Below are positions 12,830 through 48,700 of a stretch of DNA of 64,000 nt, in pieces; position 1 is the stretch's first letter, and every line of letters starts with the position of its first letter. The stretch comes from Azolla caroliniana (lineage: Eukaryota; Plantae; Polypodiophyta). The DNA is taken from NCBI GenBank assembly GCA_043228905.1, contig JBHGNT010000013.1:14198001-14262000 (forward strand). Direction: 5' to 3'. A model generated the notes under the pieces. The model made no database searches. It was not told the origin of the DNA and was given only the letters and a program-made list of their open reading frames with translations. A program made the translations under genes and the position numbers.

Positions 12830-14006
12830 CTATCTTTCATCTTCATGTTGATCTATTGGAGGAGGTTCAAGCTCAAACATTTTCTTAAATACTTTTGTCC
12901 TCTTTCCAGCTACCACGTTTAGGATTAGTGTTCCATCCAATTGACTAAGCTTATAAGTAAAGTTATCATATACTTTTCTTACTATATAAGGCCCAAACCA
13001 TCTTTCAGCAAACTTGCGGACGGTGCTATGTTGATTATCTAAACTGCTACCATACATGAGCACCCAATCTCCTTCTTCTATTTTCTTAGGTTGAATTCTA
13101 TGAGTTTTATCAAAACAAATTTTATTCTTCAGTCGAGCCTCCTTCAATCGTTGGGCTGCTATTTCTATATCTTCAGGTCGATGCTCTAATTGTTGAATTC
13201 GCAAAGCAAGTAATTCTTCTATGCTCACCTCTTCTCTCCATGGAATAGATATCCATGACATAATTGATTCATCCATTGGCATGATGGGCTTTTGGCCAAG
13301 TATCAATTTAGCTGGCATGTATCCTGTTACCGAACTATGAGTTGTTCAATCCGCCCATAGTGCATAAGGTAGCATGCGTGGCCAATCTCTTATTTTACCT
13401 TTACAACTTTTCATGATTGCCTTAACTATTGGGCTATGTCCTCTTTCAATCTTTCCATTGGCTTCTGGATTATACGCAGTTGTAAGTGATAATTTGACCC
13501 CTATTCGGCTGAAGAATTCTCAAGCTTCATCAGAGTCAAGTTCTCCTCTATCTGCAATTATTTTACCAACACATCCGTAACGACATATTACATCTTCTAA
13601 CAAAATTTACATACAACTCTAGTTGTTTTTTGTCGTAGTGGTCTTCCTTCTACTTGGTTTGTAAGGTCTTCTCTTGCTAGTACTAAATATCGCATTTGAC
13701 CTTCCCCAGGTGGCATTGTCACTAGATCGACCATGTCAAGAAATACACGCTCCCGATGAACAACGCTCGGCCACAACCGAGCTTAGAATCAAACATAGAA
13801 AACCGGGAATGAATGCACAACACAATGGAGAGAAGAGTACACAGGATGTTTACGTGGAAAACCCAAACACGGGAAAAACCACGGCAGTCTACTGACTGCA
13901 AACTATCACTATATCACAATGATTACAACAGTGAGCTCACGGAGGCAACGACCTCGTGCTCACGATCTTCGCCACAGGCGGTGGTTACAACAGAGGAAAC
14001 AACCTC

Positions 14007-14046
<40 letters not shown>

Positions 14047-17000
14047 CACAGTTACGCGCTCAAATCTTGCGCCAACAAGAATGAAAACCACTATCTAAGT
14101 TTGCCCTAAGTCATATTTATACTAATATGACTTTTCTGCTATTTACAAATATAGCCCCGATGGACTCTCAGAAAGCATATTTACGAATATGTCCCTTCAT
14201 CCGGTGAGCACTTCTCACCGGGCCTTCACCATCCGGCTCTAGCTAGGTACTCCTCATCTGGTTCTCACCGGGTCTTCCGTAGCTGGGTACTCCTCATCCG
14301 GTTTCGGCCTCGGCCGAGTTTCTCATCAGCACTGTTCTTCTCACTTCCCATCCGGAGGAACCTGTTTCCTAACAATTTGACCCCTATTCAGCTGAAGAAT
14401 TCTCTAGCTTCATCATAGTCAAGTTCTCCTCTATCTGCAATTATTTTACCAACACACCCGTAACAACATATTACATCTTCTAACAAAAATTTACATACAA
14501 CTCTCGTTGTTTTTTGTCGTAGTGGTCTTCCTTCTACTTGGTTTGTAAGGTCTTCTCTTGCTAGTACTAAATATCTCATTTGACCTTCCCCAAGTGGCAT
14601 TGTCACTAGATCGACCATCCATTTATAATGCATTGATGATGAATATGTTGGTTTTAGCTCATCTCGATACCGGATAGTTGAATACCTCTGGCATACCTCA
14701 CAGGTTTCCACAAATTTCGTTAAATCTTCATACATATGTGGCCACCAATACTTCTGCTTCGTTAATTCTGGGTTCATGGTTCTAATGTATGCAATCCACC
14801 GAAGCAGTGCAATATCCGGTGTGGTGCAACTTGCTATCATTCCGATGAGTGGCAAACAATTTGTTTCAACCACTACATCTGCTCCGATCAAGTAATCTCT
14901 ATCTCTTTTTAATGCAGTAAGCAAAACCCACAATTCTCGTTTAACTTGTGCATAATTTCTTTGTCTTTCATTTAATATCTTTGCTCCAAATCTGATAGCA
15001 TATCGATGTTGGTCTTCATCTTCTTGGTTGATAACCCAACCGATCCCGATTGGGCTAGTATCAACTGTTACTATAATTGGTCTTTCACCTTTGTAGTTTG
15101 GTTGACGCAGAACTGGTGCTTTCAATAATGCTTCTTTCAGTTGTTGAACAACTTGTGTATGTTCATCAGTCCAAATAAACTTCTTCCCTTTTCTTAAAAG
15201 TTGGTAGAGAGGATCTGAGACATGTGCAAAGTGTGGTAACCAAATATGATAAAACACACATGCACCCAAAAATCTTCTCACCTCTGTTACCGAGTCACAA
15301 ACTTCCTTCATATTTTGTATTGCGTTAATTTTGATCGATGAAGGCTTCCTCCCATACCACCCACACATATGACCAACTATTAGAACTTTGTTTTGCCCAA
15401 AGCTAGATTTTGTTCCTAATAGTGTCAAATGTACCTACTCAAGCTTATTTAAAATGCTTTCACAATCATTAATGTGATTCATCACAAACTTTCTGCAACC
15501 ATTTCCAACCATAGTCTCATCTTTCTCTCTTTCTAAGCATCCCTTAATAGGAATATCATCTAAAAATGGCATAGTTACCTTTGGGATGTATTCATGTAGA
15601 ACTTTGTTCATTGCATTCATCATATGAGCAACTGAATTCGTCGCACCTTGAGGTAGAGTGCACATTCGAACCAACCCAATTGGTGTTTTCATTGTTGTGA
15701 TATTGCGACTATCAATTGCTAGTTGAAATTGGTCGTATCTTGAATATAGGTCTCCCACAGAGTAAATCGCTCTTCCAGCAAACGCTTCCGCAAATTCATC
15801 AATGATTGGTCTGATTCCCACATTTAAGATTGTGACTTTGTTGACTGGTTGTAGATCTTGAATGAATCTTAGAGAACCATCATTCTTTGGAACTGTGAAC
15901 CATCTATTGGAGTATGGTGCATTTGAAGGCTCTAAAATCTTCATCTTGACTTTATCCTTCAACAGCTCCAACAATTGAGGTAATCAAGCTCTCGGTACTG
16001 CAATATGTTTAAAATTCCAAGGAATATGAGGGATAGTAAATATTACCATTGGCGTCACCACCTTTGGATCTACACAACCAATCTCCTTAGCTTTGAATGT
16101 GAACACTATCCCATGCCTAAAGATCATTTCTTTGAAAGTTGCAATCTCTGATTGGAGAAAAAATTCACCCCCTCCGATTCTCAAGTTATTTATTGTCTCC
16201 GAAGTGAAGTGATGTCCGATCTTCTCTATTGGTCGAAGCATAGGCTCGGTTGCTGCTGCCTCCATTTTCTCTTCACTACCAATAGGTAATTGTACTGCAA
16301 ACAGGTTTGACCGTTTTATCTATTGTTTTGTATTTTGTATTACATAAACTTTCTACTTCTTCATATTTACAATTATACCTATCAATCTCATAATACATAT
16401 CAATTGAGTTTACATGTATCTTTCTAACATTCTCATCATCTTCTTTCAAGTACATTTCTAACTCTTCTAAAGTATTTGCAAAAGAAATTTCTTCCATAAC
16501 ACTTTCAATCTTCTCTTCCATTTCAAGTACTCCATTATCCTTCAATGCCTGCTGAAACAGATTAACATTCTTTTTCAAGTTCCTCTTGCATTCATACATC
16601 CTAGTCACACATATAACACCACTTTCAGAAACATGAAATGACTTATTCATATGTTGTAATGCCCTATATGAGGGTCTTTTAATAATGGGACTATTGCAAC
16701 CCTCACTCGCAACAGTCCTAGTCAAAAACCTGATTATCAAAATCATCACAGTCTTTTGGTATTGAATGATCACGAAGCTCTTGCTTGTTCCTCTCATGAT
16801 TTGGGCGAACTGTCATAAATTGTACAGTTCGTCGTCCATCTTGGCTACGGATTTTCGCATAGGTAGAACCATTGTCGAGGACTTTGGTCTCCATCCGTAC
16901 CGCTGTAATGTATGGTTGCCCCAGGATTATTGGATAGGTAGATTCTTCCTGCACAAAGAAATGTTGATCTACCTCTATATCACCAATAATAACCTTTACA

Positions 17001-18889
17001 TTTGGGCATGCACCAAATAAATCTTCCGTGACTGATGTGGCAGCTTTTACTCGCCAACCATGTTGAGTATCAATTGGCCATCTACCTTTCCTGTAAAAAT
17101 CAGCACTCATTATATTTATTTCAGAACCATGATCAATAAGTGCCATCACGGGGTCTGGAACATTTCCAATCTTCACATGATGCTCAATAGTGGCTCTTGC
17201 CCAACATTTGCGAGAGTAATGGCTTCTTACATCTGTTGAATTTATCTTTGAGGTTGATGCATGTTGAGAGTCAACAACGATATTGTTTGACTCGTTGCTC
17301 ACCACTTCATATGCCACCTTCGGATTTGTCTCTTTAACCTACTCATTTACTTGCTTCTTTCTTTGCACAATATCTATTATTTCATCATGAAATTCCTTTT
17401 TTGCAATACCTAGCACTTCTCTTAGTGTAAATTCTACTCGATTGTCTAGTATTCTCGTTTCTAAAACTTTCTTTAAATCTGTATCTTTTTCAATATTAGA
17501 CATTAATTTGAATGAAGGACCAGATTTACCTTTTTCGACCTTTGCGTCCATCTCTTTTCTTTTGCTTTCTCTTGTCTCATGCTTTTTTGTTGAGCCAATC
17601 TCATCATCCGGCCTTTTCCTTTTTTCTTCAACTATCACCTCATGCTCTTGGTGTTCTTCCATCTGAGCATAGACCGTCATAGCATCTACTGGAACATCCC
17701 ATCCAATGTTTTTACTTACAGAATCTCCGGCAACACGAAGGTCTTCCATCTTCATCTTTTGCTTTTGTGCGGTACTTACACCTTCTCCCGGAATGATGAT
17801 CGGGATGGCATGTCATCGAGGCGCATTCCTGCCGTTGCTGAGTAGTACATTGAGGAAGCCTTCTTTGCTTTAGCTTCTTCAAATTTAACCTTAACACCAC
17901 CATCACCAAAGTTCTTTGTACCGACTTCTAGTTTCAGTTAAATAAATGTTACCATTTTTCCAATACACCAAGTCTCGATTTTCCATGTCTTTATATTCCG
18001 CACAATCACGTAATCGATGTTCGAGACTATCACACCACATGCATCGAGGTCAAAATGGTTCCCTTGACCTCGAAGTCTGACCATTCTCAAGCTTTGCCAC
18101 TTTAATTGTTAGATCTTTCATACTTTGAACTAAATCATCAAGCAAAGACTCACTCTTAGTTTCGATCATTTCTTGTGGTTGATGGACCATTTCGTGTGAT
18201 GGTTCTCAACCAAGTCGTTGAACTTCGATGTTTTGCTCAAGCCGATTTGTGATTCCCACATGTGGTATTTGTAGCATTGCACCATTCCTTTGCATTCTTT
18301 TCATAAATTTATTACAAGCATTTGTTATCTCATTCCAATCTGCAGTTATACCATCCTCCGTATTTGGTACTTCAAGCATGAATTCCAATTCTTTTCTATA
18401 TCTCTTGTCAACTGCCTGCAAAAATAAAGCAACCTTTTGCCAAGACAAAGAATTTCTTTCCTCTGGCTTTAAGTGTCCATACAATCTATCAAACTCTTTT
18501 TTCGTGTCAGCCACAGATAATCCTTTATTTTCTTTTAGGACCCATTCATGGAATGAACACATAGTAACGCGAGAGAAATCCTCACGAGCATATTCAGACA
18601 CAAGTGCTTCTTTGAATGCATTCCAATCCAAACCATGCAATATTTGTATTTCACGAATTCTATCTCTTAATTCCATTTCCACTAATTTATAAAAGTTTGC
18701 TATCATATTGACATCATTCACAGCAAACATTTCCATTTCATCATAATATATATTGACATACTTTGAGATATTTGTGCCATCAAACACACCAATTTTCTCT
18801 CGGACTTCTCGTAAGGCATGAAATAATTGATCTTGATTCAATTTTTCAATAAACAACCTTACCGGATCCATTGTACTCGTACTTGTCAT
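12830..18889 (-). pseudogene. gag-PR / RT-RH-INT of element H, fragmented
   Basis: ORF pieces: gag 18206-18889; CCHC knuckle at about 18000-18045; PR ALIDHGSEIN in 16718-17317; RT YSNRWF...MPFLDDIPIKG in 15435-15974; RH/INT 14388-15428; INT C-terminus RWFGPY in 12830-13318. Confidence 0.88.
13734..14374 (-). mobile_element. Copia-like solo LTR inside the integrase of element H
   Basis: TG...CA ends (TGTCAAG...CCTAACA), the motif TTTACGTGGAAAACCC...GGGAAAAACCACGG common in plant Copia LTRs, a (CT)n tract at about 14011-14043, and no internal domain. Confidence 0.65.
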
Positions 18890-20255
18890 GCTGATGTTGA
18901 TCTTTGCTTTAGATGTCTCTTCTACTTCCCCGTTTCACGTCGAGTTCACCAAATTGTGTCGTGGCGTGGCTTGCCTGGAAGCGTAGCGTTGCGTAGACAA
19001 AAGATATCGTGAAAGCGAGGAAGGAATCACTGGGATTATGGACGGAAGAGACGAAAGAGTAGAGATAGAGTAAATAGAGATCAACAAGATATGACAAGAT
19101 AGGATATTGAATGATATTTGAAGGAATAAAAGAGATTTATAATTATTTGATGAAAGAGTTACAAAAGTGGTTGTAAGCGTCGTTGATCCTTCGAACTTGG
19201 TCTCACAAGATAATCACTCTTCTCTTTCTTGATAGTAGGCCACAACAATCTTCACTTCAATATTTTGATGAAGATAAGGCTCAAACCGCCTCCCTCTTGT
19301 TGAGAGTTAACTACCACGATCGCCAAGCTAGAGCTCCACCTTTATGTTGAACTTCTTCCTTTCTTTCTCTATTTTATGGTATCTCTTATGTAATATATAT
19401 TTGATTGATATCTCATACCTCTCCCCCTTTGATATTCTCTTTCACCATTTAAATAGGTGCCCCCATGCATATGATGCATTGGAGGGTACAAGTCATGCAT
19501 GTAGTGCATGAAATGCATGTGATGCATGATAGGCATCTCGCTCATTTGAGCTTTCATGTATGAAAAAATATATGGCATAAGAATAAACATGAAAATAAAG
19601 TTTTAAAAATAAAGGACCTAGCCTAATGGTAGGTGTGTTGACTTTGGTATATGAGGTTGTGGGTTTGAGTCTCTCAAATATTGTTGAATACCACATGTAA
19701 CATCGTTTTTATATCATGAAGCAAATCCTTTATTTTATATATATATTTAGTATAGAGTAAATGGTAAGATTTGAAAAGTCATAGGATGGGGTTATTGGTT
19801 CAAGTCCTCTCTTGTTCGTGTAATATAATATATTTATCTATATATATGTATATATATATATTATTTTTCTTTACATATATATAATATTATGATGTGTTGT
19901 TAATATTATCTTTATATATAAAACATTATCAAATGTTATTTTAGTTACGTATTTATCTTATTTGTGACTTTTAATGTGAAGCTTTCGTACTTCACGACAT
20001 TGGGAGCACGATACGTCAGTACCACGGGAGAGGGTGTGGAGCGAGCCACCCTCTCGACTTGCGGGCAAAGATGACTCGGGATAAGGATCGGAGATACGAC
20101 GAGCCCGAGGAGGATCCTTCACACCAGTTCTAGAGACTCCGGCGGTCGGCCCAAGAGTCGGCGTGAGACCTAGAGTAAGGAACGGTGGCGGCGAGGGGAC
20201 GAAGGCAAAGGGCTACTGAAGGGGCGGTCTACGGAGATCCTCACACCGATCCGGC

Positions 20256-26261: not shown

Positions 26262-28121
26262 CCCGACTGAAAGATGAGCCGGTCGGTAATCCGACCCGAC
26301 CGGGAAGCAGAGCGGAAGAAGGGTGAAGCGGGGGCCTGTCAACCGGGCACGAACCGAAGGGAGCCGGCAAGACCGGGATTGTTTGATCGATTCGTAGCCG
26401 GCCGGGTACGGTTACGGTGGGAGCCGGTGAGAGCAAGAAGGAGGCCTAGTGGGCACGGTGATCACGGCTTGCTAGAAGACCGAGAGCGAGAGGGACCTTC
26501 CACACCCATTCTAGAGACTTCGGCGGTTGCGGATCAACGTGAGACCGGAGAGACGGCGGGTGGCGGCGAGGAGTCGGAGGCCGAAGCGGACAAAGTTATC
26601 GGAGCGGGTATCCGGTATGAGATGATGGACAAGCGGGTCCAAGATGGCGAGCTCAGGTCAGAACGGGCTATGGAGACAAAGGAAGAAGTGGCCGACGCGG
26701 AGGTCGGGTCTACGACGGATGAAGGGTGTAACACGAAGCATGCACTACGGTCGGTGAAGGGCCCAAGAACGAGCATGCATCCGAGAGAGCATCAACGAGT
26801 GATCGGAAACGGTGGACCGATTGAGCCTTTGAGAGGTGAGGACTCGGTGGTGAACTGAGAGTGGGAGGAACCCTCCACACCTACCCATGAGGCATCGGCG
26901 GTCGCGGATCGAAAGGGGAACGAAGATGCGGTGGGTGGCGGCGAGGAGTTGGAGACTGACGCGGAGGTCGGGCCTACGGCGGAAGCACGACACGAGACGC
27001 ATGCGATACGGCCAGTGGAGGGCCAAGACACAAGCATGCATACGGCGGATGGGCGACAACGATTGACCGACGATGACGGTCGGGTCAAGCCTCCGAGAGG
27101 CAAGCGCGGGACGAAGGACGGCGCGGCGAAACACCAAGATCGACGACATGGGCCGAGCGCGATCGGCATGAGCGGAGAGTCGTATCTAGGAAAACGGAGG
27201 AGATGCGCGGAGAACAACGGGGTACACACCGGGAAGAGAAAGCGCGGCGGCTTCCCGGAGGGCATACAAGGCCAAGCGGGCCAAGAGGGCGCAAGTCGAG
27301 GCGAGGCGATAACGAGAGCCTCGAGGGACACCGACATGGAGGTCGGGATGACGATACGCTCTACTACGAGAGAGCACGGCGAAAGAGGGGAAAGCGAAAA
27401 ACGCGTGATGGGGTCATCGAAGAAGCGAAGCACGAGCACGCTGTCGTGAAGAAAACCGTCCACAAGCGGAATCGGTGTACCGGACCGTAGGAACCGACTC
27501 TTCATGCACGTGCGCCTTATGTTGTACATAGGAGATCCTAGGTAGATTCGGTAGGTAGGAAGTAAAGGGGAAACGGCTCCTTCCTAGCCTATAAAAGGAG
27601 GGAGACGAGGAGGGGCGAGGGATCGCGGAGAGTCGAGGACGAAGTGCTGTCGGTTTGCGTGCGAAGGCTTCTCTCTCTCTCTCTTTCTGGTTGCAAATGC
27701 CATAGCTTCCTTCTGTGCAGGTTTCGGGAGGCCCGCGCTGCTCTGAGCAATGCCCGAGTGCTTCCGGCAGCACCTCCAACCTACTCATTCCCCTCTGTGC
27801 GTTTACGAACAGGTATCGGCATCTGTTCGCCGGCCTGTTCGGTTGTAACCGACTTCGTGTTATGTTGTCTTCGTGTTCTTGTTGTTTGTCTTGTCAATAC
27901 ATACATACTTTCGTGTCTTTCTGTGTCGCTGTCCCACTCGCGTCTTTGCGTCGAAGGGCCGTGTCCCTGTGAATCTACGCTCGCACGTAGTGGGTCTCTC
28001 TCTCTCTCTCTTACTCTTCGGTACAGGACCCCCGAGGTCCCGCCTCACTCCACGCATCCGCGAGGAATACCTCGACATATTTGGTGAACCCGACGTGAAA
28101 GAGGCGGCAGAAGAGCAGAAG

Positions 28122-31100
28122 ATGAGGGGGTCGGATCTTGCAGAGGCCATGGCTTCGGCCGTGGATTGGATATTGAGCACACGCGAGGGCACCGGTGCCC
28201 TCGACAGAGCCATTGAGGGGGTCGTCGGTACGATCGGCCGTTTCAACGGAAAGGATGCTACGAAGTATTTGGCGTCCTACGGGGTGGAAATGCTGATGCG
28301 GGACATTCCGGAAGAGAGGCGTCTTGCCGGGTTCCCTCGAGTGGCGATGCCGAGCATCCATGCGGAGGTGCTCGAGGTACGGGCGGAGAGCCGTACCTGG
28401 GAGGAGTTCGAAGGCCGACTCCTAGAGAAATATGGGCTGGACGACGCGCTCCGGCTTTCGAAACGGGACTTCATGGAATGGGTGGAGTCCCTCGGCAAAG
28501 GAAGAAACGCGTCGGCACTCCTCCGGGAGTTCGAAGAACGCTTTGCGCGCCTTTCGGCGCTTGACCGAACCATTCTGGATACGAGCCGGGTCCTACTGTT
28601 CGTCAAGTCGGTGGACGAGCGGGACCGGGATCAAGTCGGCTCCCTGCTGGAAACTGAAGATGGGCTGGGCTGCGGTTAAGAGAGTCTGTGGCCGTTTCGA
28701 CAAACGGCGAGAATGGGCTGACAACGGGGCGGCCGGTGCGGGCTCTGTTACAGCAAGGAGGCTTGAACCGGCACCGCAAGTGCGAAGGGAAGAAACCCGG
28801 GAATGGCTCGAAACCGGTTCGGCTTCGACCAGCATGGTCAATGGCTCATCCGGAGGAGCAGCGCTAGAGGAGTTGACGCGGGCGATAAAGGATCTCCAGA
28901 TCGCCCAGACTCGAAGGGAAGGCGGCGAACCGGCTCGTGACCGACAGCCGGCAGCGGGGAACAAGTGCATGTGGTGCAACGAGGTCGGCCACATTCGGAA
29001 GGACTGTGGCGATTTCGCAGAGGCGTTGAGAAACCGGGTGGTATACCTGTGGGAAGGCCGGGTGCACGCTGGCGACACCAGGAGGGCCCTGAGCCGAAAC
29101 GACGGGCGAGGAGGTATGAAGAGACTGATGGAAGAGGCAGCGGCCTGACACGTGGAGGCCATCCACTACTCAGCGTCAGCTGGTATTCGGGTCGGGGGCA
29201 GCGAGGCCCGAAAGGAGAGTAAAGACGGTTTCTGGTCGGCAATGCTGGAAGGCCTCGCCGGCGCGCGATTGAGGAAAGATGAAACGGACCGCGCTGAGAG
29301 ACGGGTCCGGGAAATAACCGGGTGGAGCGATCCGGTCGAGGAGAAGATGGGCTTCGTAGAAGCCGCTTGCCGGAACTACGAGGCTCTGGTAGAAGAAAAA
29401 CGAGTGGGGAAAGCCGGAGCGGCCAGGCCCTCACAACGGTACGAGACCCGATTCGGGCAACGACGGAACGATTCCGGTGGGCCCGGCCCGCAAGATAACC
29501 CCAGGAAGGGCGGGTACCGACTGGGGACAGAAATAGAAAGGACTACGGACCTACGAAAGGTCCTAGAAGAACGGATCCTCGACAGCAAAGTGGAGCTGTC
29601 ATTACGGGAGGTGCTAGGGATCGCCAAGAAGGAGTTCCACGACTCCATTGTAGACATGGTGAAACGGAAGAGACTGTCGACGGAGACGGAACCGGAAAGA
29701 CTGGTGGAGGTGCGGACGACGCACATCGACGACTCGGCGCTGGAAGATGAGTGGGCGGAGAGCCACTATTCGAGGCCGCACTGGGCCCGAGCGACCACGG
29801 AGACCCGGGTAAAAATCGGAGGTGTTCAGGAACCGGTGGTGGCGTTGGTGGACCACGGTTCGGAAATAAACCTAATGTCCATGGACTTCTATAAGAAGGG
29901 AAAGTGGCCGATCAACACCAGGCACGGGTGGAAGATACGGGCGGCGACGCGCCCCACCGAGGAACTGCACGGGGCCTGCCCGAATGTGCGAGTAAAGATC
30001 GACGACGTCGAGATTGACCAGCACTTCTTTGTACAGTAGACGTCCTCGCATCCGGTCATATTAGGGGAACCATACATCACGGCGGCGAGAATGGAGACCA
30101 AGGTGCTGGACAACGGTTCGGCCTACACGAGGGTCAAAAGCCAGGACGGGCGCCATTCGGTGCAATTTTTGACGGTGCGGCCGAACCACGAGAGAAACCG
30201 CGAATCCCTCGGTGGCGAGAGCCGGGAGGATTTTTAGAGAGGGCTGCCAAGGCGTGGGGCCGAGACAGCCCGGACACTCGGAAACGACCCCACGACTATA
30301 CGATAGGTAGGGGATTTTGCTGTATGATAGTCGGCACCGTCGGCCGAGAAAAGACAAGGGCGGAAGTGCGACTTCGAGCGTGCGGAGTTCTCGGCCCGGA
30401 CGAGGAAATCAGCGGAGCCGTGGAGGCGGTCTCCTTCGATGACACCTTGGGAATGCTGAGGAAGGTAGCCGGAGAAGACCTTAACGAAGACCGGACGATA
30501 CTGGTATGTTCCGAAGAGATGTACGAAGTCATCGCGAACTTCAGTCGGGGGCTCGGGTCGGATCGGACGGCCCGAGTTAGCACAAAGTACAAGGCTGTGG
30601 ACCGGAAGGTAAGGCCAGTCGCGGCACCCTTACCGGAGGGCAGCGAGTCCCGGATCAGAGGGGTTGCGTCGGACCCCAGTTTACGAGATCCGGCCTGCAT
30701 AGGACACACCTTCACCGACGGAACACTCCGGGAGCTCAAAATCGGTGGGGGCGGGTTCCTACTGCCGGCGGAGGAAGACCGGTTTCGGAGAATGCTCGGA
30801 AGGCACGGGAAAGCCTTTGCATTCTCACCGGAAGAGATCGGGTGCGTAGACCCGACGATCGTGGAGCCGATGGTGATATTCACGGTACCGCATGTACCGT
30901 GGAATCTCAAGCCGATTCCAGTACCGAGAGCTCACATCCCGAAGTTGATGGAGCTATTGAGGCAGAAAGTCGATATGGGTATTCTCAAACCGTCGAGCGC
31001 GCCATACTCGAACCGATGGTTTACCGTACCAAAGAAAAACGGAACATTGCGCTTCATTTAGGACCTGCAGCCGGTCAACAGAGTGACCATCTGGAACGCA

Positions 31101-33683
31101 GGAATCAGACCGACCATAGACGAGTTCGCGGAGGCCTTCGCCGGAAGGTCGATTTACTCGGTCGGTGATCTGTACTTGGGGTATGACCAGTTCCAGCTAG
31201 CCGTGGAGAGCAGAGACATTACGACGATGCGAACTCCCCTCGGCCTAGTGCGAATGTGTACCCTGCCACAAGGAGGGACCAACTCGGTGGCCCACATGGT
31301 GAATGCAATGAACAAAGTACTGAGGGATTGCATCCCAGACATCACCATGCCGTTTTTGGACGACATCCCCATAAAGGGGTGCCCGGTGGAAGAGAAGGAC
31401 GAGACACTCGGGCCGGACGGATGCCGGCGATTCGTAGCAACACACATCGACGACTGTGAGAAGGTGCTACAAAGGCTAGAGGATGCGAGGCACACCTTCT
31501 CCGGGGAGAAATCGGCCTTCGGGCAATCAGAAATCCTGGTGGTCGGGCATCTATGTGGACCATATGGCCGGAAGCCGTCTCCGGCAAAGGTAGAAGCCAT
31601 CTCCTCGATGAAGACCGACTGTAGCTCGGTTACAGAAGTTCGGAGGTTCCTGGGGGCATGCGCGTTCTACCACATATGGATCCCGCATTACGCCCACGTT
31701 GCGGAGCCACTATACGGGTTGCTGAAGAAGGGGCAAAGATTCGAGTGGCGAGACGAGCACACGGGGTCGGTCTGGAAGCTGAAGGAAGCTCTTACGGCAG
31801 CACCGGCGCTCCGGAAGGCTGTCTACGAGAAGGGTACCCCGGTATACATAACGGTGGATACGAGCCCGACCGGGATCGGATGGGTCGTCAACCAAGAAGA
31901 CGAGAACGGCACCCGGTTCCCGATCCGATTCGGCGCTAAGGTCCTCAGTGAGCGACAGCGAGGGTACGCCCAGGTTAAACGCGAACTCTGGGGTATCGTT
32001 TCGGCGGTAAAGGCGGACAAAGACTACCTGATCGGGACAGAAGTGATTATCGAGACGGATTGCCTGCCGATTCTCGGCATGGTTTCCGGATGTGTGACAC
32101 CGGACCTGGCGATGCTCAGGTGGATAGCGTACATCAAGTCCCTGGACCCGGAGATACGACACATTTCCGGAAAGGACAACGCCATGGCCGACATGCTTTT
32201 GAGGGCGAGGTTTGATGACGAGGGCGGCATGGTTTCGGAGGACGAAGAAGTCGGCGTGGACTTCTTCGAGGCGGCGTACGTGATGACCGATGGGACGAGC
32301 ACTCCGACACTTAACGACTTCGACGAGAGCAAGTACGACGGCGAGTGGCTCCAGATCGGTGGATTCTTGAGGACAATGACGCCGGATGCGTCATGGACGA
32401 AGGACGAGGCCAACCGGATCCGGAAGAAAGCTTACCGATTCTTTCTCCGGGACGGATACTTATGGAAGCACCCGAAGAAGAGGGACGGCGCTCCGCTCCG
32501 GGTGGTGGCGATGAAGGAAGAACAAGAGGAACTGCTGACGGCCTACCACGACAGCCCTTGGGCCGGACACCGTGGAACCTGGGCCACGTTCGAGAAGATA
32601 AAGGGGGAGTACTGGTGGCCGGGACTGTACCGGGACGTGCATCGATTCGTGAAAACTTGCGAGAGCTGTCAGATGCACTCCATAGTCCGACACCGGGACG
32701 AACTTCACCCTACGTACCCTCCGACCATCCACTTCAAATGGATGGTAGACCTGGTAACGATGCCGATAGGAGTAGGACAGATGCGGTATCTGGTCCTGGC
32801 TCGGGAAGATCTAATGAACCAGGTGGAAGGCCGGGCCCTTCAGAACAAAACGACTGCGGCCGTATGTCGGTTCCTGCTCGAGGACGTAATATGCCGGTAC
32901 AGGTGCGTCGGGAAGATCGTGGCCGATCGCGGGGAGTTGGATGCCGAAGAGGCCGAGGAGCTGTTCGACCGGTTAGGGGTCAAGCTCTCGCTTACCACTG
33001 CGTACAATCCAGAGGCAAATGGGAAGGTGGAGCGCGGACACGGACCGATCGTCAAGGCGTTAGTTCGGGCATGCGGAGGTCAAGTCGGGAACTGGCCGCG
33101 GCTACTGCCTTACGCGTTGTGGGCTGACCGGACTACGCACAGTTCGGTAACCGGATTCATGCCGGCAGAGCTCATGTTTGGGCAGAAGCCGATCATGCCG
33201 ATCGAACGTACGGTCTCCTCATGGGCAACCGTGGACTGGAGAGACGAGATGAGCCGGGAGGAACTGTTGACGGCGCGCATACGACAACTCGAGCGGAGAC
33301 CGGAGGACGTGGAGCAGGCTGCGGAAAAGCTTCGGGTGGCCAGGACGAGGAACAAAGCCCGGTTCGACCGGACGCACCGGCTCCGACCGAAGAAGATCGA
33401 GGAAGGCGACTAGGTGCTAGTCTACGACAGCAGCCTCGACAACCAGCACCGAGCGACACGGAAGTTCGCAAGAAGGTGGTTCGGGCCTTACATGGTACAA
33501 AGCGCCAACGACAACGGGACGTACCATCTGGCGGAACTCGACGGTACGAGAATGGCGATACCGGTAGCTGGGAAGCGGATCAAGACGTTCAAGAAGCGTC
33601 ACGACGACGAGCCGGATCCGGTTGACTTGGACCGCGACGACGAGCGATCCGAAACCGAGGAAGAACCGACGGGCGGAGGATGA
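28122..33683 (+). pseudogene. gag-PR / RT-RH-INT of element F with several nonsense and frameshift lesions
   Basis: CCHC CMWCNEVGHIRKDC; PR ALVDHGSEIN; RT MPFLDDIPIKG; RH TVDTSPTGIG; INT HRGT...CESCQ, WMVDL, ADRGE, GKVE, RWFGPY. Stops at about 29146, 30037, 31059 and 33411. Confidence 0.9.
30228..30294 (+). promoter_or_regulatory. Putative -1 programmed ribosomal frameshift signal (slippery G GAT TTT plus pseudoknot) of element F
   Basis: GGATTTT immediately followed by the ORF1 stop TAG; stem1 GGGCTG/CAGCCC; loop CGTGGGG complementary to downstream CCCCACG. Equivalent signals occur in H, A, B, C, D and E. Confidence 0.72.
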
Positions 33684-34448
33684 AGGCTGGACCGGTTTTC
33701 TCCGTCCCAACACAATTTGGCGCATGCCGGTGGATGCGCGGTTAGGTGGGGGCGGATGTCGTGAAGAAAACCGTCCACAAGCGGAATCGGTGTACCAGAG
33801 CGTAGGAACTGACTCTTCATGCACGTGCGCCTTATGTTGTACATAGGAGATCCTAGGTAGATTCGGTAGGTAGGAAGTAAAGGGGAAACGATTCCTTCCT
33901 AGCCTATAAAAGGAGGGAGACGAGGAGGGGCGAGGGATCGCGGAGAGTCGAGGACGAAGTGCTGTCGGTTTGCGTGCGAAGGCTTCTCTCTCTCTCTCTT
34001 TCTGGTTGCAAACGCCATAGCTTCCTTCTGTGCAGGTTTCGGGAGGCCCGCGCTGCTATGAGGAATGCCCGAGTGCTTCCGGCAACACCTCCAACCTACT
34101 CATTCCCCTCTGTGCGTTTACGAACAGGTATCGGCATCTGTTCGCCGGCCTGTTCGGTTGTAACCGACTTCGTGTTATGTTGTCTTCGTGTTCTTGTTGT
34201 TTGTCTTGTCAATACATACATACTTTCGTGTCTTTCTGTGTCGCTGTCCCACTCGCGTCTTTGCGTCGAAGGGCCGTGTCCCTGTGAATCTACGCTCGCA
34301 CGTAGTGGGTCTCTCTCTCTCTCTCTTACTCTTCGGTACAGGACCCCCGAGGTCCCGCCTCACTCCACGCATCCGCGAGGAATACCTCGACAGCGCATTC
34401 GGAGGGCAACGTTGACATACGGGGAAAGCCTACGGAAGGCAAGCGTGG

Positions 34449-41024: not shown

Positions 41025-43136
41025 ATGAGGGGATCGGAGCTCGCCGAAGCCATGGTGGCAACAGTTGATCGGATAGTAAGTGCTTGCGAGGGCACGAGCG
41101 CCCTCGACAAGGCCATCGAAGCAATTGTCGGCACAATAGGCCGGTTCGATGGGAAGGACGCCACGAGTTATTTGGTGGCCTATCGGGCCGAAATTGTGAT
41201 GAGGGGTATCCCGGAGGATAGGCGGCTAGCTGGGTTCCCTCGGGTAGTGACACCGGGCATCCACGTAGAGGTGCTCGAGGTGCAGGCTAGATGCCAGACC
41301 TCGGGGGAATTCGAAGCGCGGCTCCTCGAACGGTACAGGCTTGATGACACTCTTCGGTTGTTGAAGCGGGACTTTATGGATTGGGTGGGGACCCCAAGAA
41401 AGGGGAGGAATGCGTCGACGCTCCTCCGGGAGTTTGAGGAACGCTTCGCATGCCTCTCAGCACTGGACAAGACCGTATTGGACACGAGCCGTGTCCTTTT
41501 ATTCGTCAAAGCTGTGGACGTGCGAGATCGGGAGCAAGTGGGTCTCCTGCTGGAGACGGACGATGGGCTGACGACCGACTGGGCCGTGGTAAAAGTGGTC
41601 TGCGGCCGTTTTGACAAATGGTGTGAGTGGGTCGACAAGGGCTCGTCGGTGGCATGAGCGGTTGCGGCAAGAAACCTCGAGGGACCCCCGCTGGCACGCA
41701 AGGAGGAAACCCGGGATTGCCTTGAGATAGGCACGTCCAGCGTGGTCAAGGGCCCGTCTGGCGGAGCGGCTTTGGAAGAACTGACGCAGATGGTACGAGA
41801 CCTTTAGATTGCACAAGCGAGGAGGGACGGTGGCGTGCAGCCTCGCGATCGAAGGCCTCCGGGTGGGCATCGGTGCTTGTGGTGTGACGCGGTCGATCAC
41901 ATCCGGAAGGACTGCGTGGACTTCGCAGAAGAAATAAGGGCTAATGTGGTATACCTATGGAACAGGAGGGTGCACGCTAGTGACACCCGGAGAGCCCTGG
42001 AGCTGAATATCGGACGGGGAGGGATGAAGAGGTTGATGGAAGAAGCGGCGGCGCGCCACACGGAGACCATCCACTACTCGGCGTCGGCAGGAATCCCGGT
42101 CGGAAGTGACCAAGGCCGAGAGACGAAAGACTCCAGGTTTTGGCCGGTGGTGCTAGAAGGCCTCGCGGGCGTGCGGTTGAAAAGGGAGGAAGCGGACCGT
42201 GCAGAAAGACGGGTCCAGGAGGTCACCGGGTGGAGCGATCTGGTCAAAGAAAAGACCGGCTTTGTGGAAGCGGCATGCCAGAACTACGAAGTTCTAGTAG
42301 AAGACAATTGTGCGGGAAAAGCCAGAGGGGGTGGACCCTCGCATTGGTACGAGACCCGATCTGGGCCGAAGCAGAATGATGCCGGTGCTGCCGACACACC
42401 GGATAAAGCAAAGAAAGCCGGTTATTGATTGAGCACGGAGATAGAAAGAACGACGGACTTGCGGAAGGTCCTTGAGGAACGAATCCTCGACAGCAAGGTG
42501 GAGTTGTCGCTGAGGGAAGTGCTTGGGAAAGAATTCCATGACTCCATCGTGGACTTGGTGAAGCGAAAAAAGCTTTCGACGGAGCTGGAGTGGGAGAAGC
42601 CGGTGGAGGTGCGAACAACGCACCTAGAAGACATGGCCCTAGAAGACGAGTTGGCGGAAAGTCACTATTCAAAGCTGGAGTGGGCAAGAGCCACTACGGA
42701 GACCTCGGTTAGGATCGAGGACGTCCAGGAACCGGTGGTGGCATTGGTGGACCACAGTTCGGAAATCGACCTGATGTCTATGGACTTCTACAAGAAGGGC
42801 AAGTGGCCGATCAACACCAAGCATGGGTGGAAAATACGAGCGGCGACGCGCGCCATGGAGGAGCTACATGGGGCCTGCCTGAATGTACGGGTAAACATCG
42901 GTGATGTCGAGATTGACCAGCATTTCTTCGTGCAGGAGACATTGTCACATCCAGTGATACTCGGAGAACCGTACATTACGGTAGCACCCATGGAGACGAA
43001 AGTGCTAGATAACGGTTCGGCGTACGCGCACGTGAAGAGCCAAGACGGGGGACACTCCGTCCAGTTTCTGACGGTGCGACCGAACCATGAGCGCAACTGC
43101 AAGACCCTTGGCGGCGAAAGCTGAGGGAATTTTTAG
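41025..43136 (+). pseudogene. gag-PR of element A, degenerate
   Basis: MRGSELAEAM..., CLWCDAVDHIRKDC, ALVDHSSEID, QFLTVRPNHERN; several stops. Confidence 0.85.
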
Positions 43137-45773
43137 AGAGGGCTATCAAGGCGTGGGGTCACTATCGTGGAGAAAACCGTCCCTAGGAGAAATCGATGGA
43201 TGATATGCGTGAACCGGCCATGACACACGGGCACATGTTTTGATAGATTTATATACATAGTTAAGTACAGGCCGGAGATGTAACTATCATAGGTAGCACT
43301 AGTTCATTAAGTAGGGAATCAAGGAGAATAACAGGAATTTAACGGTCTGTACATTACTCTCTCCTTGTGCTATAAAGGGAGAGGAAAGGGGCTTGAGTAG
43401 GGATCGCGTGTTGAGTGGACGAAGTGCTGTCGGACTGGGAACCGAGCTCTCTCCTCCACCATCGCTGTCGCTTCTATAGGGATTTGGGTTAGGTTGGCTG
43501 CCTCTACTGCGTGAAAGCCCGCATGCTTCCGATAGAGGCTCCACCACGTATTTCAGGGCGTGCGTTCGTCTGTGTCTCGTTTATCATCGGCTTGCCGGTT
43601 GTAACATTGCAAGCTGTAACCTATATTGTTATTGGATTAGATTCTTTCATTTTTTTGTCTCTCTGTGTTTCTGCGAGTCTCTCTCTTTCTCTCTTTCTCG
43701 CTCAAATTCCTCGGTTTAGGGCCCCCGCGGTCCCGCCTTATTTCCTACGCGTGAGTGTAACAACACGACATAAATTTGGTGAACTCGACGTGAATTAAGG
43801 CGGCAGAGGAATAAAAATGAGGGGATCAGAGCTCGCCGAAGCCATGGCGGCAGTAGTGGATCGAATAGTAAGTGCTCGTGAGGGCACGAGCACCCTCGAT
43901 AGGGCCATCGAAGCAATTGTCGGCACAATAGGCCGGTTCGATGGGAAGGCCGCCACAAGTTATTTGGTGGCCTACCGGGCCGAGATGGTGATGTGGGACA
44001 TCCCGGAGGAAAGGTGTCTGGCTGGTTTCCCTCGGGTAGCAACACCAGGCATCCACGTAGAGGTGCTTGAGGTGCAGGCTGGATGCTGGACCTGGGGAGA
44101 ATTGGAAGCGCAGCTCCTCGAGCGGTACGGGTTTGATGACACGCTTCGGTTATCGAAGCAGGATTTTATGGATTGGGTAGAGACACCAAGAAAGGGGAAG
44201 AATGCGTCGGTGTTGCTCCGGGAGTTCGAGGAACGCTTCGCACGACTTTTGGCGCTGGACAGGACCGTACTGGACACGAGTCGTGTCCTTTTATTCGTCA
44301 AAGTTGTGGACGTGAGGGATCGGGAGCAAGTGGGTCTCCTACTAGAGACAGACGATGGGCTGACGATCATCTGGGCCGTGGTAAAGGGGGTCTGCGGCCG
44401 TTTCGACAAACAACGTGAGTGTGTCGACAAGGGCTCGTCGGGGGCAGGAGGGGTTTCGGCGAGGGAACCTGGGGTTGGCTTGAGACAGGCTCGTCCGGCG
44501 TGGTCAATGGGCCGTCCGACAGAGCGGCTTCGGAGGAGCTGACGAAGATGGTACGAGACCTCCAGATTGCAGAAGTGAGGAGGGACGGCGGCGAGCAGTC
44601 TCGTGACCGAAGGCCTCGAGGCGGGCATCGGTGCTTGTGGTGCGACGCGGTCGGTCATGTCCGGAAGGACTACGTGGACTTCGCGGAAGCAATAATGGCT
44701 AATGTGGTATACCTATGGAACGGAAGGGTGCACGCTAGCGAAACCCGGAGAGTCCTGGAGCTGAATATTGGACGGGGAGGGATGAAGAGATTGATGGAAG
44801 AAGCGGCGGCGTGCCATGCGGAGACCATCCACTACTCTGCGTCGGCAGGAATCCGGGTCGGTAGTGACGAAGGACGAAAGATGAAAGACTCCGGGTTCTG
44901 GCTGGTGGTACTAGAAGGCCTCGCTGACGTTGTCGTGATATTAAGCAAGTGCGTGTGGAATCGAGGCGGGACCGCGGGGGTCTCGAACCAAAGAGCAAGC
45001 GAGGGAGGAGAAAGAGAGAGAACCGGCTACGCAGGACCGGGGATACACAGGGACACGGCCCTTCAGCACGGAGAACGCGGACAGAGACCGACACAGACAG
45101 ATGTGAATGACTTAATATGTATATTAAGAAAATGGCTAATCACGACTACAACCCTCGACGGGGCACAGGTTGGTTACAACCGAACAGGCCGGCGAACAGA
45201 TGCCGATGCCTGTTCACTTCGACGCACAAAGGGGCTGCCGGAAGCACTCGGGCGTTCCTCGAAACAGCGCGAGCCTCCTCGGAACCCTGCACAGAAAGCT
45301 ATGGAGCTCCAGAAGGAAGGAAACAGAGAGAGAGAAGCGTCCAGAAACGGTCCGACAGCACTTCGTCCTCTCCGTCCCCGATCCCCCTGCAACAGCTCTT
45401 TCCCGCTCCTTATATAGGCCGACGAGCAGGCCGTCCTGTCAGCTTTATTCCCTGTCCCTTTTGGACAGGGATCCGCTCCGTTTTCCACGCATCCGCGTAG
45501 TTACGCCGCCGACTCGTACAGTTCGCGCGCGCGACCGAAAAGACTGTTCGCGCGGTCTTTGTCTCCACTTGAGTTAGGGCCCGTTCCTGCCGATTATCCT
45601 CCCGATTCGCTTCTATGTACAACTTGGAGCGTGCGTGCGTGAAGAACCGGTTCCCACGCCTTGGTGCGCCGATTCCGCCTATGGACGGTTTTCTTCACGA
45701 CATCCGCCCCCACCTAACCGCGCATCCTCCGGTATGCGCCAAGAGAGTTGGGACGGAGAAAACCGGCCCGTCT

Positions 45774-48700
45774 TCATTCCTCGCCCGTCGGTTCTTCCTC
45801 GTTTTCGGATCGTTCGTCACTGCCGACCAGGAGAGCCGGGTCTGGCTCGTCGTCGTGTCGCTTCTTGAACGCTTTGATCCGCTTCCCTGCAATCGGTATC
45901 GCCACTCTCGTGCCGTCGAGTTCCGCCAGGTGATATGTCCCGTTGTCATTGGCGCTCCGTACCACGTAGGGCCCGAACCACCTTCGTGCGAACTTCCGTG
46001 TAGCTCGGTGCTGGTTGTCGAGGCTGCTGTCGTAGACGAGCACCCAGTCACCTTCTTCGATTTTCTTCGGTCGGAGCCGGTGCGTTCGGTCGAACCTGGC
46101 TTTGTTCTTTTTCCTCGCCACCCGGAGCTTCTCCGTAGCCAGTTCCACGTCCTCCGGTCTCCGCTCGAGCTGTCGTATGCGCGCGGCCAACAACTCCTCC
46201 CGGCTCATCTCGTCCCTCCAGTCGACCGTCGCCCACGAGGAGATCGTCCGTTCCATCGGCATGATCGGCTTCTGGCCGAACATGAGCTCCGTCGGCATGT
46301 ACCCGGTTACCGAACTGTGCGTGGTCCGGTCCGCCCACAAGGCATAAGGTAGCAGCCACGGCCAGTTACCGATTCGGCCTCTGCATGCCCGAACCAACGC
46401 CTTGACGATCGGTCCGTGTCCGCGCTCCACCTTTCCATTCGCCTCCGGATTGTACGCAGTGGTGAGCGCGAGCTTGACTCCCAGCCGGTCGAACAGCTCC
46501 GTGGCTTCTTCGGCGTCCAACTCCCCTCGGTCAGCCACGATCTTCCCGACGCACCCGTACCGGCATATCACGTCCTCGATTAGGAACCGGCATACGGCCG
46601 CGGTCGTTTTGTTCGGAAGGGCCCGGCCTTCCACCTGGTTCGTCAGATCCTCCCGCGCTAGGACCAGGTACCGCATCTGTCCTACACCCATTGGCATCGT
46701 TACCAGATCTACCATCCATTTGAAATGGATGGCCGGAGGGTACGTAGGGTGAAGCTCGTCTCGATGTCGGACTAAGGAGTGCATCTGGCAGCTCTCGCAA
46801 GTTGTCAGGAACCGATGCACGTCCTGGTACTGCCCCGGCCACCAATACTTCCCCTTCAGTTTCTCAAACGTAGCCCATGTTCCACGGTGTCCAGCCCAAG
46901 GGCTGTCGTGGTAGGCCGTCAGCAGCTCCTCCCGTTCTTCCTTCATCGCCACCACCCGGAGCGGAACGCCGTTCTTCTTCTTCGGGTGCTTCCATAGACA
47001 GCCATCCCGGAGAAAGAACCGGTACGCTCTCTTCCGGATCCGGTCGGCCTCGTCCTTCGTCCATGACGCATCGGGCGTCATTGTCTTCAGAAACCCACCG
47101 ATCTGCAACCACTCCCCGTCGTACTTGCTCGCGTCGAAGTCGTTAAGCGCCGGAGTGCTTGTTCCGTCTGTTGTTACATACGCAGTCTCGAAGAAGTCCA
47201 CGCCGACGTCTTCGTCCTCCGAAACCATGCCGCCCTCGTCATCGAATCTTGCCCTTGAAAGCATGTCGGCCATGGCGTTGTCTTTCCCGGAAATGTGTCG
47301 TATTTCCGGGTCCAGGGACTTGATGTACGCTATCCACCTGAGCATTGCCAGGTCCGGCGTCGCGCATCCGGAAATCATGCCGAGAATCGGCATGCAATCC
47401 GTCTCTATAATTACCTCTGTCCCGATCAGATAGTCCTTGTCGGCCTTCACCGCCGAAACGATACCCCAGAGCTCGCGTTTAACCTGGGCGTATCCTCGCT
47501 GCCGTTCGCTGAGGACCTTCGCACCGAATCGGACCGGAAACCGATTGCCGTCCTCATCTTCTTGGTTGACGACCCACCCGATTCCGGTCGGACGCGTGTC
47601 AACCGTTATGTACACTGGGGTGCCCTTCCTGTAGACGGCCTTTCGGAGCGCCGGTGCTGCCGAAAGAGCCTCCTTCAGCTTCCGGACCGACTCTGTGTGC
47701 TTGTCTAGCCATTCGAATCTTCGCCCTTTCTTCAATAACCCGTACAGCGGCTCCGCGACGTGCGCGTAATGCGGGATCCATATGTGGTAGAATGCGCATG
47801 CCCCCAGGAATCTTCGTACTTCCGTGACCGAGCTGCAGTCGGGCTTCATCGCGGAGATGGCTTCTACCTTTGCCGGAGACGGTTTCCGGCCATACGACCC
47901 ACATAAGTGTCCGACCACCATGATTTCCGACTGGCCGAAGGCTGATTTCTCCCCCGAGAAGGTTAGCCTCGCATCCTCTAGCCTTTGCAGCACCTTCTCG
48001 CAGTCGTCGATGTGCGTTACCACGAATCGCCGGCATCCGTCCGGCCCGATCGTCTCGTCCTTCTCTTCTACCGGGCATCCCTTGATCGGGATGTCGTCTA
48101 GAAACGGCATGGTGATGTCCGGGATGCAGTCCCTCAGCACCTTGTTCATTGCATTCACCATGTGGGCCACCGAGTTGGTCCCTCCTTGCGGCAGCGTACA
48201 CATCCGCACTAGGCCGAGGGGAGTTCGCATCGTCGTAATGTCCCTGCTCTCCACGGCTAGCTGGAACTGGTCGTACCCTGAATATAGATCACCGACCGAG
48301 TAAATCGACCTTCCGGCGAAGGCCTCCGCGAACTCGTCTATGGTCGGTCCGATCCCCGCGTTCCGAATGGTCACTCTATTGACCGGCTGCAGGTCCTGAA
48401 TGAAGCGCAATGATCCGTTTTTCTTTGGTACGGTAAACCAGCGGTTCGAATACGGGGCGCTCGACGGCTCGAGAATGCCCATATCAACTTTCTGCTTCAA
48501 CAGCTCCATCAACTTCGGGATGTGAGCTCTTGGAACCGAAATTGGCTTGAGATTCCACGGTACATGAGGTACCGTGAATATCACCATCGGCTCTACGATC
48601 GTCGGGTCCACGCACCCGATCTCCTCCGGCGAGAATGCGAAGGCTTTCCCGTGCCTTCCGAGCATTCTCCGGAACCGGTCTTCCTCCGCCGGCAGTAGGA

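What the first reader, a model, noticed from the sequence alone, without database searches (positions are those of the whole stretch)
30228..30294. Conserved -1 frameshift pseudoknot with compensatory changes across seven divergent elements, placed after the protease
Seen: ORF1 (gag+PR) ends at G GAT TTT TAG in F (30228), B (53808), C (49256-49262 minus), D (58841-58847 minus) and E (63095-63101 minus). Variants are G GTT TTT in H (16724-16730 minus) and a mutated G AAT TTT in A. The -1 frame (GFLER..KAWG) runs without a stop into pol in C, D and B. A stem starts 5-6 nt downstream and covaries: GGGCTG/CAGCCC (F), GGACTG/CAGTCC (C), GGACTATT/AATAGTCC (D), GGACTGTTGC/GCAATAGTCC (H). Its loop pairs with a downstream tract that also covaries: CGTGGGG/CCCCACG (F), GTGGGG/CCCCAC (C), TGGGG/CCCCA (D), TGAGGGT/ACCCTCA (H). 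Established: GGAUUUU is the slippery site of red clover necrotic mosaic virus, and H-type pseudoknots stimulate -1 shifting. A virus-like signal between PR and RT rather than between gag and PR is unusual for plant retrotransposons.
Basis: partly seen in the sequence, partly recalled or inferred. Interest (0 to 1): 0.78.

Follow-up and report, generated by a model that had tools for sequence, protein, structure and literature searches.

The report
Moss-type retrotransposon frameshift switches direction
These plant retrotransposons, likely of the moss Phygy lineage, carry a conserved slippery sequence and RNA pseudoknot after their protease gene that likely makes ribosomes slip back one base to reach the reverse transcriptase, and one subfamily has a signal one base shorter with its polymerase gene in the other frame, so it likely slips back two bases instead.

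Summary
The signal is real. Gag-protease ends at G GAU UUY in six window copies (one mutated) and in 67 of 80 related loci; RT-RH-INT follows in the -1 frame. Stem 1 covaries (91 double changes vs 30 shuffled; 8 of 8 double changes on a tree keep the pair); stem 2 pairs element-specifically (0 of 20,000 swaps). The stop is TAG, TAA, TGA or absent, so TTTTTAG is not a conserved splice acceptor. NCGN target sites, no aRH and no chromodomain point to Phygy, whose ORF layout a 2019 survey lists as not determined. This clade nests among -1 elements. AG GUU UUU is the arterivirus -2 site, and shorter spacers favour -2 in vitro. Best reading: -1 frameshifting across the lineage, switched to pseudoknot-driven -2 in one subfamily. 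No frameshift was measured; -2 versus +1 is inferred.

The parts
27442..34392 (+). Element F, Phygy-like Ty3/gypsy LTR retrotransposon (LTRs 27442-28077 and 33757-34392, 98.6% alike; flanks ACGC/GCGC); decayed by in-frame stops
28082..28099 (+). Primer-binding site of F (TGGTGAACCCGACGTGA); its match to tRNA-Trp is recalled, not tested
30228..30234 (+). F slippery heptamer G GAU UUU; ORF1 stop TAG at 30235-30237
30241..30271 (+). F stem 1 (GGGCTG 30241-30246 with CAGCCC 30266-30271), 6 nt after the heptamer
30253..30294 (+). F stem 2 (CGTGGGG 30253-30259 with CCCCACG 30288-30294)
44931..52160 (-). Element C, the most intact window copy: LTRs 99.6% alike, perfect ACGT target duplication, -1 frame open 1162 codons from the site through RT, RH and INT
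49196..49262 (-). C heptamer (49256-49262) and pseudoknot
58784..58847 (-). D heptamer (58841-58847) and pseudoknot; -1 frame open 964 codons
63035..63101 (-). E heptamer (63095-63101) and pseudoknot; pol broken downstream
53808..53875 (+). B heptamer and stem 1; stem 2 degraded; fragmentary element
43127..43157 (+). A: mutated heptamer and 5' arm only, cut by an LTR-like insertion
11810..19999 (-). Element H, decayed member of the -2-frame subfamily (LTRs about 92% alike; flanks CCAA/CCGG)
16724..16731 (-). H shift site AG GUU UUU; ORF1 ends ...QVFD, stop at 16718-16720
16669..16718 (-). H pseudoknot, 5 nt after the heptamer: stem 1 16709-16718 with 16688-16697; stem 2 16699-16705 with 16669-16675
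16276..16812 (-). H pol N-terminal frame, in the -2 (= +1) frame relative to ORF1
16721..17200 (-). H ORF1 C-terminal part with the retropepsin protease, upstream of the shift site

Best explanation
These Ty3/gypsy retrotransposons, likely of the Phygy lineage, end their gag-protease frame at a conserved G GAU UUY heptamer followed by a covarying two-stem structure predicted to be an H-type pseudoknot, and likely make RT-RNase H-integrase by -1 ribosomal frameshifting there; in the subfamily of element H the pol frame lies in the -2 (+1) frame and is likely reached by a -2 shift at AG GUU UUU. Most ribosomes would stop and give Gag-PR; a minority would stall at the pseudoknot, slip and give Gag-PR-Pol. 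Shown: heptamer, frames, covariation, purifying selection on both ORFs, nesting of the H clade among -1 elements. Inferred: that ribosomes shift, and the direction. The two site types differ by one base between the P-site codon and stem 1. That one difference gives tRNA-Phe a UUU to re-pair with two bases back (G GAU UUU offers AUU there) and shortens the spacer from 6 to 5 nt, so that after either slip the A-site codon ends 7 nt before the stem and the same residues follow (F-L-x-R-T).
For: Heptamer: 74 of 80 loci scored (60 GGATTTT, 7 GGATTTC, 3 AGATTTT, 2 GGGTTTT, 2 GGTTTTT), 72 of the 74 in the ORF1 frame. The frame is open for 300 codons or more in -1 in 44 of 74 and in -2 in 2 of 74, the two GGTTTTT loci. 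Proteins: of 116 cluster representatives ending within 50 aa of the tail motif, 74 end DF, 23 have DF five residues before the stop, 3 end GF (157 examined), although the tail varies in length and sequence. Stem 1: 91 double-change cells vs 30.1 +/- 5.1 shuffled and 16-31 slid; on a tree from upstream DNA 8 of 8 double-change branches keep the pair, slid controls 0-1, random partners 1 of 5000. Stem 2: own-partner score 15.2 vs 11.6 +/- 0.6 in swaps among 16 distinct loop types, 0 of 20,000. L081, found after the register was fixed, shows both stems in the same register (read by eye). H clade: L001 and L002 have pol open 1154 and 1101 codons in -2 with RT, RH and INT; dN/dS 0.10 at dS 1.03; synonymous divergence falls to 0.11 in stem 1 vs 0.56 overall (13 codons). 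Six of six tail-bearing members listed for the P0020 cluster end QVFD and P0174 (78%) ends QVFY. A contig of depth 36.6 in run X4 spans the site without gaps. Indels between L001 and L002 near the site are 6 and 24 nt. Literature passages: RG GUU UUU is the arterivirus -2 site (PMC11818727, PMC4937337); -2 is optimal at spacers 1-2 nt shorter than -1, also with pseudoknots (PMC3458567).
Against: No frameshift product, ribosome profile or probing data. The -2 frame is the +1 frame, so direction cannot be read from DNA. P-site re-pairing GUU to AGG is poor, and in PMC3458567 changing the first base of U6A abolished -2 in vitro; arterivirus -2 needs a protein complex (PMC4937337). In 19 of 58 rows an extra pair (columns 13/45) could shorten a -1 spacer to 5 nt too, so spacer alone is not the switch. 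The -2 clade rests on two intact pol frames at DNA level plus decayed H; L001 has a stop inside ORF1. Most loci come from one series of related assemblies and are not independent. The stem-2 register was chosen by best pairing. F, C and E alone fold no better than shuffles. dN/dS over the codons before the first shared AUG is 0.68 (34 codons), weak support for coding there. Six of 80 loci had no scorable site (two end too early, four lack it).
Confidence: 0.8

Rival explanations
1. The -1 mechanism holds for most elements, but the H subfamily reaches pol by a +1 shift (at UUU G/U or at the codon before UAG), not -2.
For: The frame is the same as -2. A stop codon lies two codons after the U run. 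P-site re-pairing in a tandem -2 slip is poor. Antizyme cassettes with a pseudoknot give +1 or -2 by host (PMC5009743, passage).
Against: +1 re-pairing is UUU to UUG in L001 and H, and GAC/UAC to ACU before the stop; neither pairs well. The conserved part is AG GUU UUU in H, L001 and L002, the known -2 site. A -2 slip keeps the residue register of the -1 relatives.
Confidence: 0.12
2. Pol is made from a spliced RNA, as in Ogre, with TTTTTAG as acceptor, or in H with CAG|GT as donor.
For: [quoted passage not shown] 27 of 74 loci have TAG right after the U run. No certain RNA run was available.
Against: 47 of 74 loci have TAA, TGA or a sense codon there. L001 and L002 have 9 and 16 frame-restoring GT..AG candidates and share none. 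Contigs of runs X1 and X3 (RNA status only guessed) cross the F and L001 sites without a gap. Splicing would not explain covarying stems.
Confidence: 0.04
3. Pol is made by reinitiation or internal initiation at an AUG after the ORF1 stop; the structure serves that, or genome packaging.
For: A shared AUG lies about 45 codons into the H-type pol. dN/dS before it is 0.68.
Against: The first AUG ranges from codon 4 to 112 across elements. The frame is stop-free from the heptamer in all 25 long pols. The heptamer stays 5-7 nt from the stem even where the stop moves five codons on (L024, L034, L052, L059).
Confidence: 0.03
4. H-type elements are dead or non-autonomous copies that inherited a one-base break.
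For: H is decayed and L001 has a stop in ORF1.
Against: Pol dN/dS 0.10 over dS 1.03 between L001 and L002; five 724-aa ORF1 proteins in the cluster end QVFD; stem 1 is kept with reduced synonymous change.
Confidence: 0.01

Closest known systems
Phygy clade of non-chromovirus Ty3/gypsy (PMC6317226; passages and suppl. file 3 read)
   Same: 4-bp NCGN target sites, 7-8 kb, no aRH or chromodomain, Physcomitrium homologues at 37-65% identity in the aligned part
   Different: That table gives the ORF layout as not determined; here it is GAG-PROT overlapping RT-RH-INT. Homologues also occur in Riccia and Adiantum proteins.
Ogre and Retand (Tat clade)
   Same: Split between PROT and RT
   Different: They use a spacer/intron or a single stop and carry aRH; here frames overlap at a slippery site with a pseudoknot.
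Umbravirus/dianthovirus -1 site G GAU UUU (PMC5009743, passages)
   Same: Same heptamer with a nearby stop
   Different: Their stimulator pairs with an element about 4 kb downstream; here a compact local pseudoknot of about 55 nt.
Arterivirus nsp2TF -2/-1 site RG GUU UUU (PMC4937337, PMC6675879, PMC11818727; passages)
   Same: Same site in the H clade; -1 frame meets a stop at once (L001, H)
   Different: Stimulated by nsp1beta/PCBP on a C-rich motif 10-11 nt downstream with no obvious structure; here a pseudoknot 5 nt downstream and no such motif seen; the product would be the essential polymerase.
Trichomonas vaginalis virus 1 vs 2-4, and phage tail chaperone genes (PMC5009743, PMC3458567; passages)
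   Same: Relatives that reach the same product by -1 in some and -2 in others
   Different: The passages seen name no conserved pseudoknot shared between the -1 and -2 forms; different hosts and sites (CC CUU UUU, GG GGG CGA).
Rous sarcoma virus gag-pol
   Same: -1 shift with a pseudoknot (PMC5009743); protease upstream of the shift (recalled)
   Different: A retrovirus with another heptamer (recalled); no -2 subfamily known to me.

Membership tests
Phygy (REXdb) | 4-bp target duplication of type NCGN | tested here: met
   C has ACGT/ACGT; F ACGC/GCGC; E 3' flank GCGT; H CCAA/CCGG. Only C is perfect.
Phygy (REXdb) | PBS complementary to tRNA-Trp | tested here: inconclusive
   TGGTGAAC[C/T]CGACGTG at 6 places; match to plant tRNA-Trp is recalled; the window's 'Trp' genes do not match; a paper search for the motif found nothing.
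Phygy (REXdb) | Order RT-RH-INT, no aRH, no chromodomain | tested here: met
   5 of 5 full pols show RVT_1, RT_RNaseH, Integrase_H2C2, rve and no chromo or RVT_3 family at E 0.01.
Phygy (REXdb) | Placement in the Phygy clade by RT/RH/INT phylogeny with reference elements | not testable with these tools
   No REXdb references held; Physcomitrium proteins are close homologues.
Phygy (REXdb) | Size 7.7-10 kb | tested here: inconclusive
   F 6951, C 7230, H 8190 bp: two are a little below the range.
TatI / Ogre / Retand | aRH domain | tested here: not met
Canonical -1 PRF signal | X XXY YYZ-type heptamer in the 0 frame with a long -1 ORF | tested here: met
   G_GA is a listed exception for XXX (PMC5009743)
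Canonical -1 PRF signal | 3' structure 5-9 nt downstream | tested here: met
   (covariation; not probed)
Canonical -1 PRF signal | Measured frameshifting | not testable with these tools
   needs reporter or ribosome profiling
Arterivirus-type -2/-1 PRF | RG GUU UUU site with a long -2 ORF | tested here: met
   H, L001, L002
Arterivirus-type -2/-1 PRF | CCCANCUCC motif 10-11 nt downstream and protein transactivator | tested here: not met
   Stem 1 occupies that place; no such motif in the three sequences (by eye). It works like this site but is not a member.

The most novel reading that the evidence does not exclude
The H subfamily is a natural, pseudoknot-driven -2 programmed frameshift that makes an essential polymerase in a eukaryotic retrotransposon, derived from a -1 ancestor by loss of a single base that at once lengthened the re-pairable U run and shortened the spacer: a natural test of the mRNA-tension model of frameshift direction.
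Probability: 0.62. Interest if true: 0.86.

Novelty: new variant of a known kind. Interest (0 to 1): 0.74.

Why it matters
It likely settles how Pol is expressed in a widespread lineage of seed-free plant retrotransposons whose ORF layout was listed as not determined, and adds a virus-like -1 pseudoknot signal to plant LTR elements. The H subfamily matters more: the natural -2 cases named in the reviews read are few (phage Mu, arteriviruses, TVV1), and the arterivirus case needs proteins. A -1 and a -2 signal that share one pseudoknot and differ by one base make the rule for frameshift direction directly testable with natural sequences. In practice, gene models that invent introns across this junction (seen in Physcomitrium, Riccia and Adiantum proteins) are probably wrong there.

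Tried and rejected
No genome is held for the window, so copy numbers and host were not determined. Viral contigs gave no relatives; GTDB genomes gave two loci, probably contaminants (only L081 was read). Rfam found only tRNAs. No RNA holder listed; runs X1 and X3 are RNA by guess only, X7 laid nothing, and the joint table was cut (200 rows hidden), so splicing was not tested on true RNA reads. My first idea that H is a one-off decayed copy was rejected. A second -2 origin in Riccia (ORF1 ends VFxxxLL; separate clade) was considered and set aside: its tail has the register of the -1 elements (DF + 3 residues + LL/PL), so it more likely is G GUU UUY used for -1; no DNA was available. RNAalifold recovers only 6 pairs of stem 1 and cannot model stem 2. 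PDB sequence searches found nothing. The ESM Atlas gave no result. The AU test (p 9e-10) against all -1 loci forming one clade is partly driven by L041 grouping with Riccia rows, so nesting rests mainly on the trees (quick searches, SH-aLRT only). Three look-ups in earlier scan notes returned nothing. Left out of alignment A2: duplicates, L049 (too short), the five loci with no heptamer or no stop, and L050, L063, L064 and window copy A, whose downstream sequence is unrelated or broken.

Full report
Observation. They lie in Ty3/gypsy elements with DUF4100 in ORF1 and RT, RNase H and integrase downstream. The last 160 residues of ORF1 fold as a retropepsin (mean pLDDT 77.8; Ddi1, XMRV and HIV proteases as best matches; Pfam aspartyl-protease families in 10 of 16 aligned members), so the junction is after the protease. 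From the heptamer the -1 frame is open 1162 codons in C, 964 in D, 277 in F, 221 in B and 133 in E. A is cut by an insertion and B has a degraded second stem. The host is unknown; homologues named by their sources are from Physcomitrium, Riccia and Adiantum.

Conservation. Of 157 cluster representatives from two searches, 116 end within 50 residues of the tail motif; 74 end DF, 23 have DF five residues before the stop, 3 end GF, 1 DFx, 2 VFx and 13 otherwise. A wider profile search adds more divergent proteins: of 109 new ones, 28 had a terminal tail and 18 of these had DF, GF or NF at or near the end. One metagenome scan gave the best 80 of 162 loci. A heptamer was scored in 74 (60 GGATTTT, 7 GGATTTC, 3 AGATTTT, 2 GGGTTTT, 2 GGTTTTT). 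The next codon is TAA in 28, TAG in 27, TGA in 10 and sense in 9. The -1 frame is open 300 codons or more in 44, the -2 frame in 2. Most loci come from one series of related assemblies, so these counts are not independent.

Structure. Sixty cassettes (58 distinct) align almost without gaps. Stem 1 pairs columns 14-21 with 37-44 and extends variably inward. It shows 91 double-change cells against 30.1 +/- 5.1 in shuffles and 16-31 in slid controls. On a tree built from upstream DNA, 8 branches change both partners and all 8 keep the pair; slid controls give 0-1 and random partners reach 8 in 1 of 5000. Stem 2 has a linker of variable length, so I scored best helices: mean 15.6 against 10.6 for shuffled and 7.7-8.9 for other windows; among 16 distinct loop types the own partner scores 15.2 against 11.6 +/- 0.6 in swaps (0 of 20,000), though in 10 of the 16 another loop scored higher for that tract. 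Single-sequence folding is unremarkable for F, C and E.

The H subfamily. H reads CAG GTT TTT GAC TAG and its stem starts 5 nt after the heptamer, not 6. Its -1 frame stops at once and pol sequence is in the +1/-2 frame. L001 (95% to H in the protease part) and L002 (82%) have the same site and pseudoknot, with pol open 1154 and 1101 codons in that frame and all domains present; the -1 frame closes at codon 3 and 8. Between them pol dN/dS is 0.10 at dS 1.03 and ORF1 dN/dS 0.08; synonymous change in the 13 stem-1 codons is 0.11 against 0.56. L001 has one stop inside ORF1, but five 724-residue members of its cluster are intact and end QVFD (15 of 35 members listed). A 444-nt contig at depth 36.6 in run X4, probably DNA, crosses the site without gaps and is identical to L001, so it may not be independent of it. 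The two form a clade with 100 support inside -1 elements in pol, RT and protease trees (quick searches).

Mechanism. Inferred: most ribosomes end at Gag-PR; some stall at the pseudoknot and slip. On G GAU UUY a -1 slip re-pairs the A-site on UUU, while -2 would offer AUU. On AG GUU UUU both slips offer UUU, but -1 meets a stop and -2 enters pol. After either slip the A-site codon ends 7 nt before the conserved first pair, and the residues F-L-x-R-T follow in both. RG GUU UUU is the arterivirus -2 site with full A-site and limited P-site re-pairing (PMC11818727, PMC6675879, PMC4937337; passages). In vitro, -2 is optimal at spacers 1-2 nt shorter than -1, also with pseudoknots, but needed the first U of U6A (PMC3458567; passages). 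A +1 slip cannot be excluded from DNA. Splicing is unlikely (47 of 74 loci lack TAG; no shared frame-restoring intron in L001 and L002). Reinitiation is unlikely (first AUG at codon 4 to 112).

Classification. NCGN flanks (perfect ACGT in C), 7-8 kb, no aRH or chromodomain and Physcomitrium homologues fit Phygy; the tRNA-Trp match of the PBS is recalled, and no reference phylogeny could be run. In PMC6317226 (passages; suppl. file 3 read whole) Phygy's layout is ND; Ogre and Retand split after PROT by spacer or stop; Tcn1 and Selgy overlap between GAG and PROT; no row lists an overlap after PROT.

Novelty. Ten paper searches listed no paper that describes this signal; I saw most hits as listings only. 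The 2016 review (PMC5009743; passages from the first 300,000 characters) says a 2003 survey found two plant element types with separate frames, both +1, and names phage Mu, arteriviruses and TVV1 as -2 cases.

Verdict. The -1 signal is a new member of a known kind, about 0.9 likely. The H subfamily is a new variant: that pol sits in the other frame under selection is shown; that the shift is -2 and pseudoknot-driven is about 0.6-0.7 likely. Interest 0.74.

Noticed in passing
window 3575-10380 and 21426-23088, minus strand: A tandem array (units of a few hundred bases) of at least 13 tRNA-like genes. ARAGORN calls Ser(TGA, CGA), Trp(CCA) and Leu(CAA), but the two 'Trp' copies have a long variable arm and look like the Ser copies: anticodon drift in a Ser-type array, or a tRNA-derived repeat. 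Element H sits inside the array.
   Followed up: partly
window 2-1762, plus strand: PPR gene with an E motif, typical of plant organellar RNA-editing factors.
   Followed up: no
window 34449-39836: A Ty1/copia element (minus strand, LTRs 99% alike) nested, with F, inside another Phygy-like element with LTRs at 23672 and 40279.
   Followed up: no
L052:1569 and L059:6483: A subgroup uses the perfect heptamer G GGU UUU with pol in -1 and the ORF1 stop five codons further on, inside stem 1.
   Followed up: partly
proteins P0067, P0083, P0088, P0090, P0097 (Riccia): ORF1 ends VFxxxLL, suggesting G GUU UUY in the -1 geometry in a separate clade; DNA not seen.
   Followed up: partly
pol codons 1-280 in all elements, e.g. 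L001:2835-3670: About 280 residues between the shift site and RT match no Pfam family yet are under purifying selection (dN/dS 0.14 over codons 45-290).
   Followed up: no
ORF1 protease, e.g. window 16721-17200 minus: The catalytic motif reads D-H-G-S instead of D-T/S-G, conserved in most homologues.
   Followed up: no
L081, L082: Plant-type retrotransposon pieces inside bacterial genome assemblies, probably contamination.
   Followed up: no
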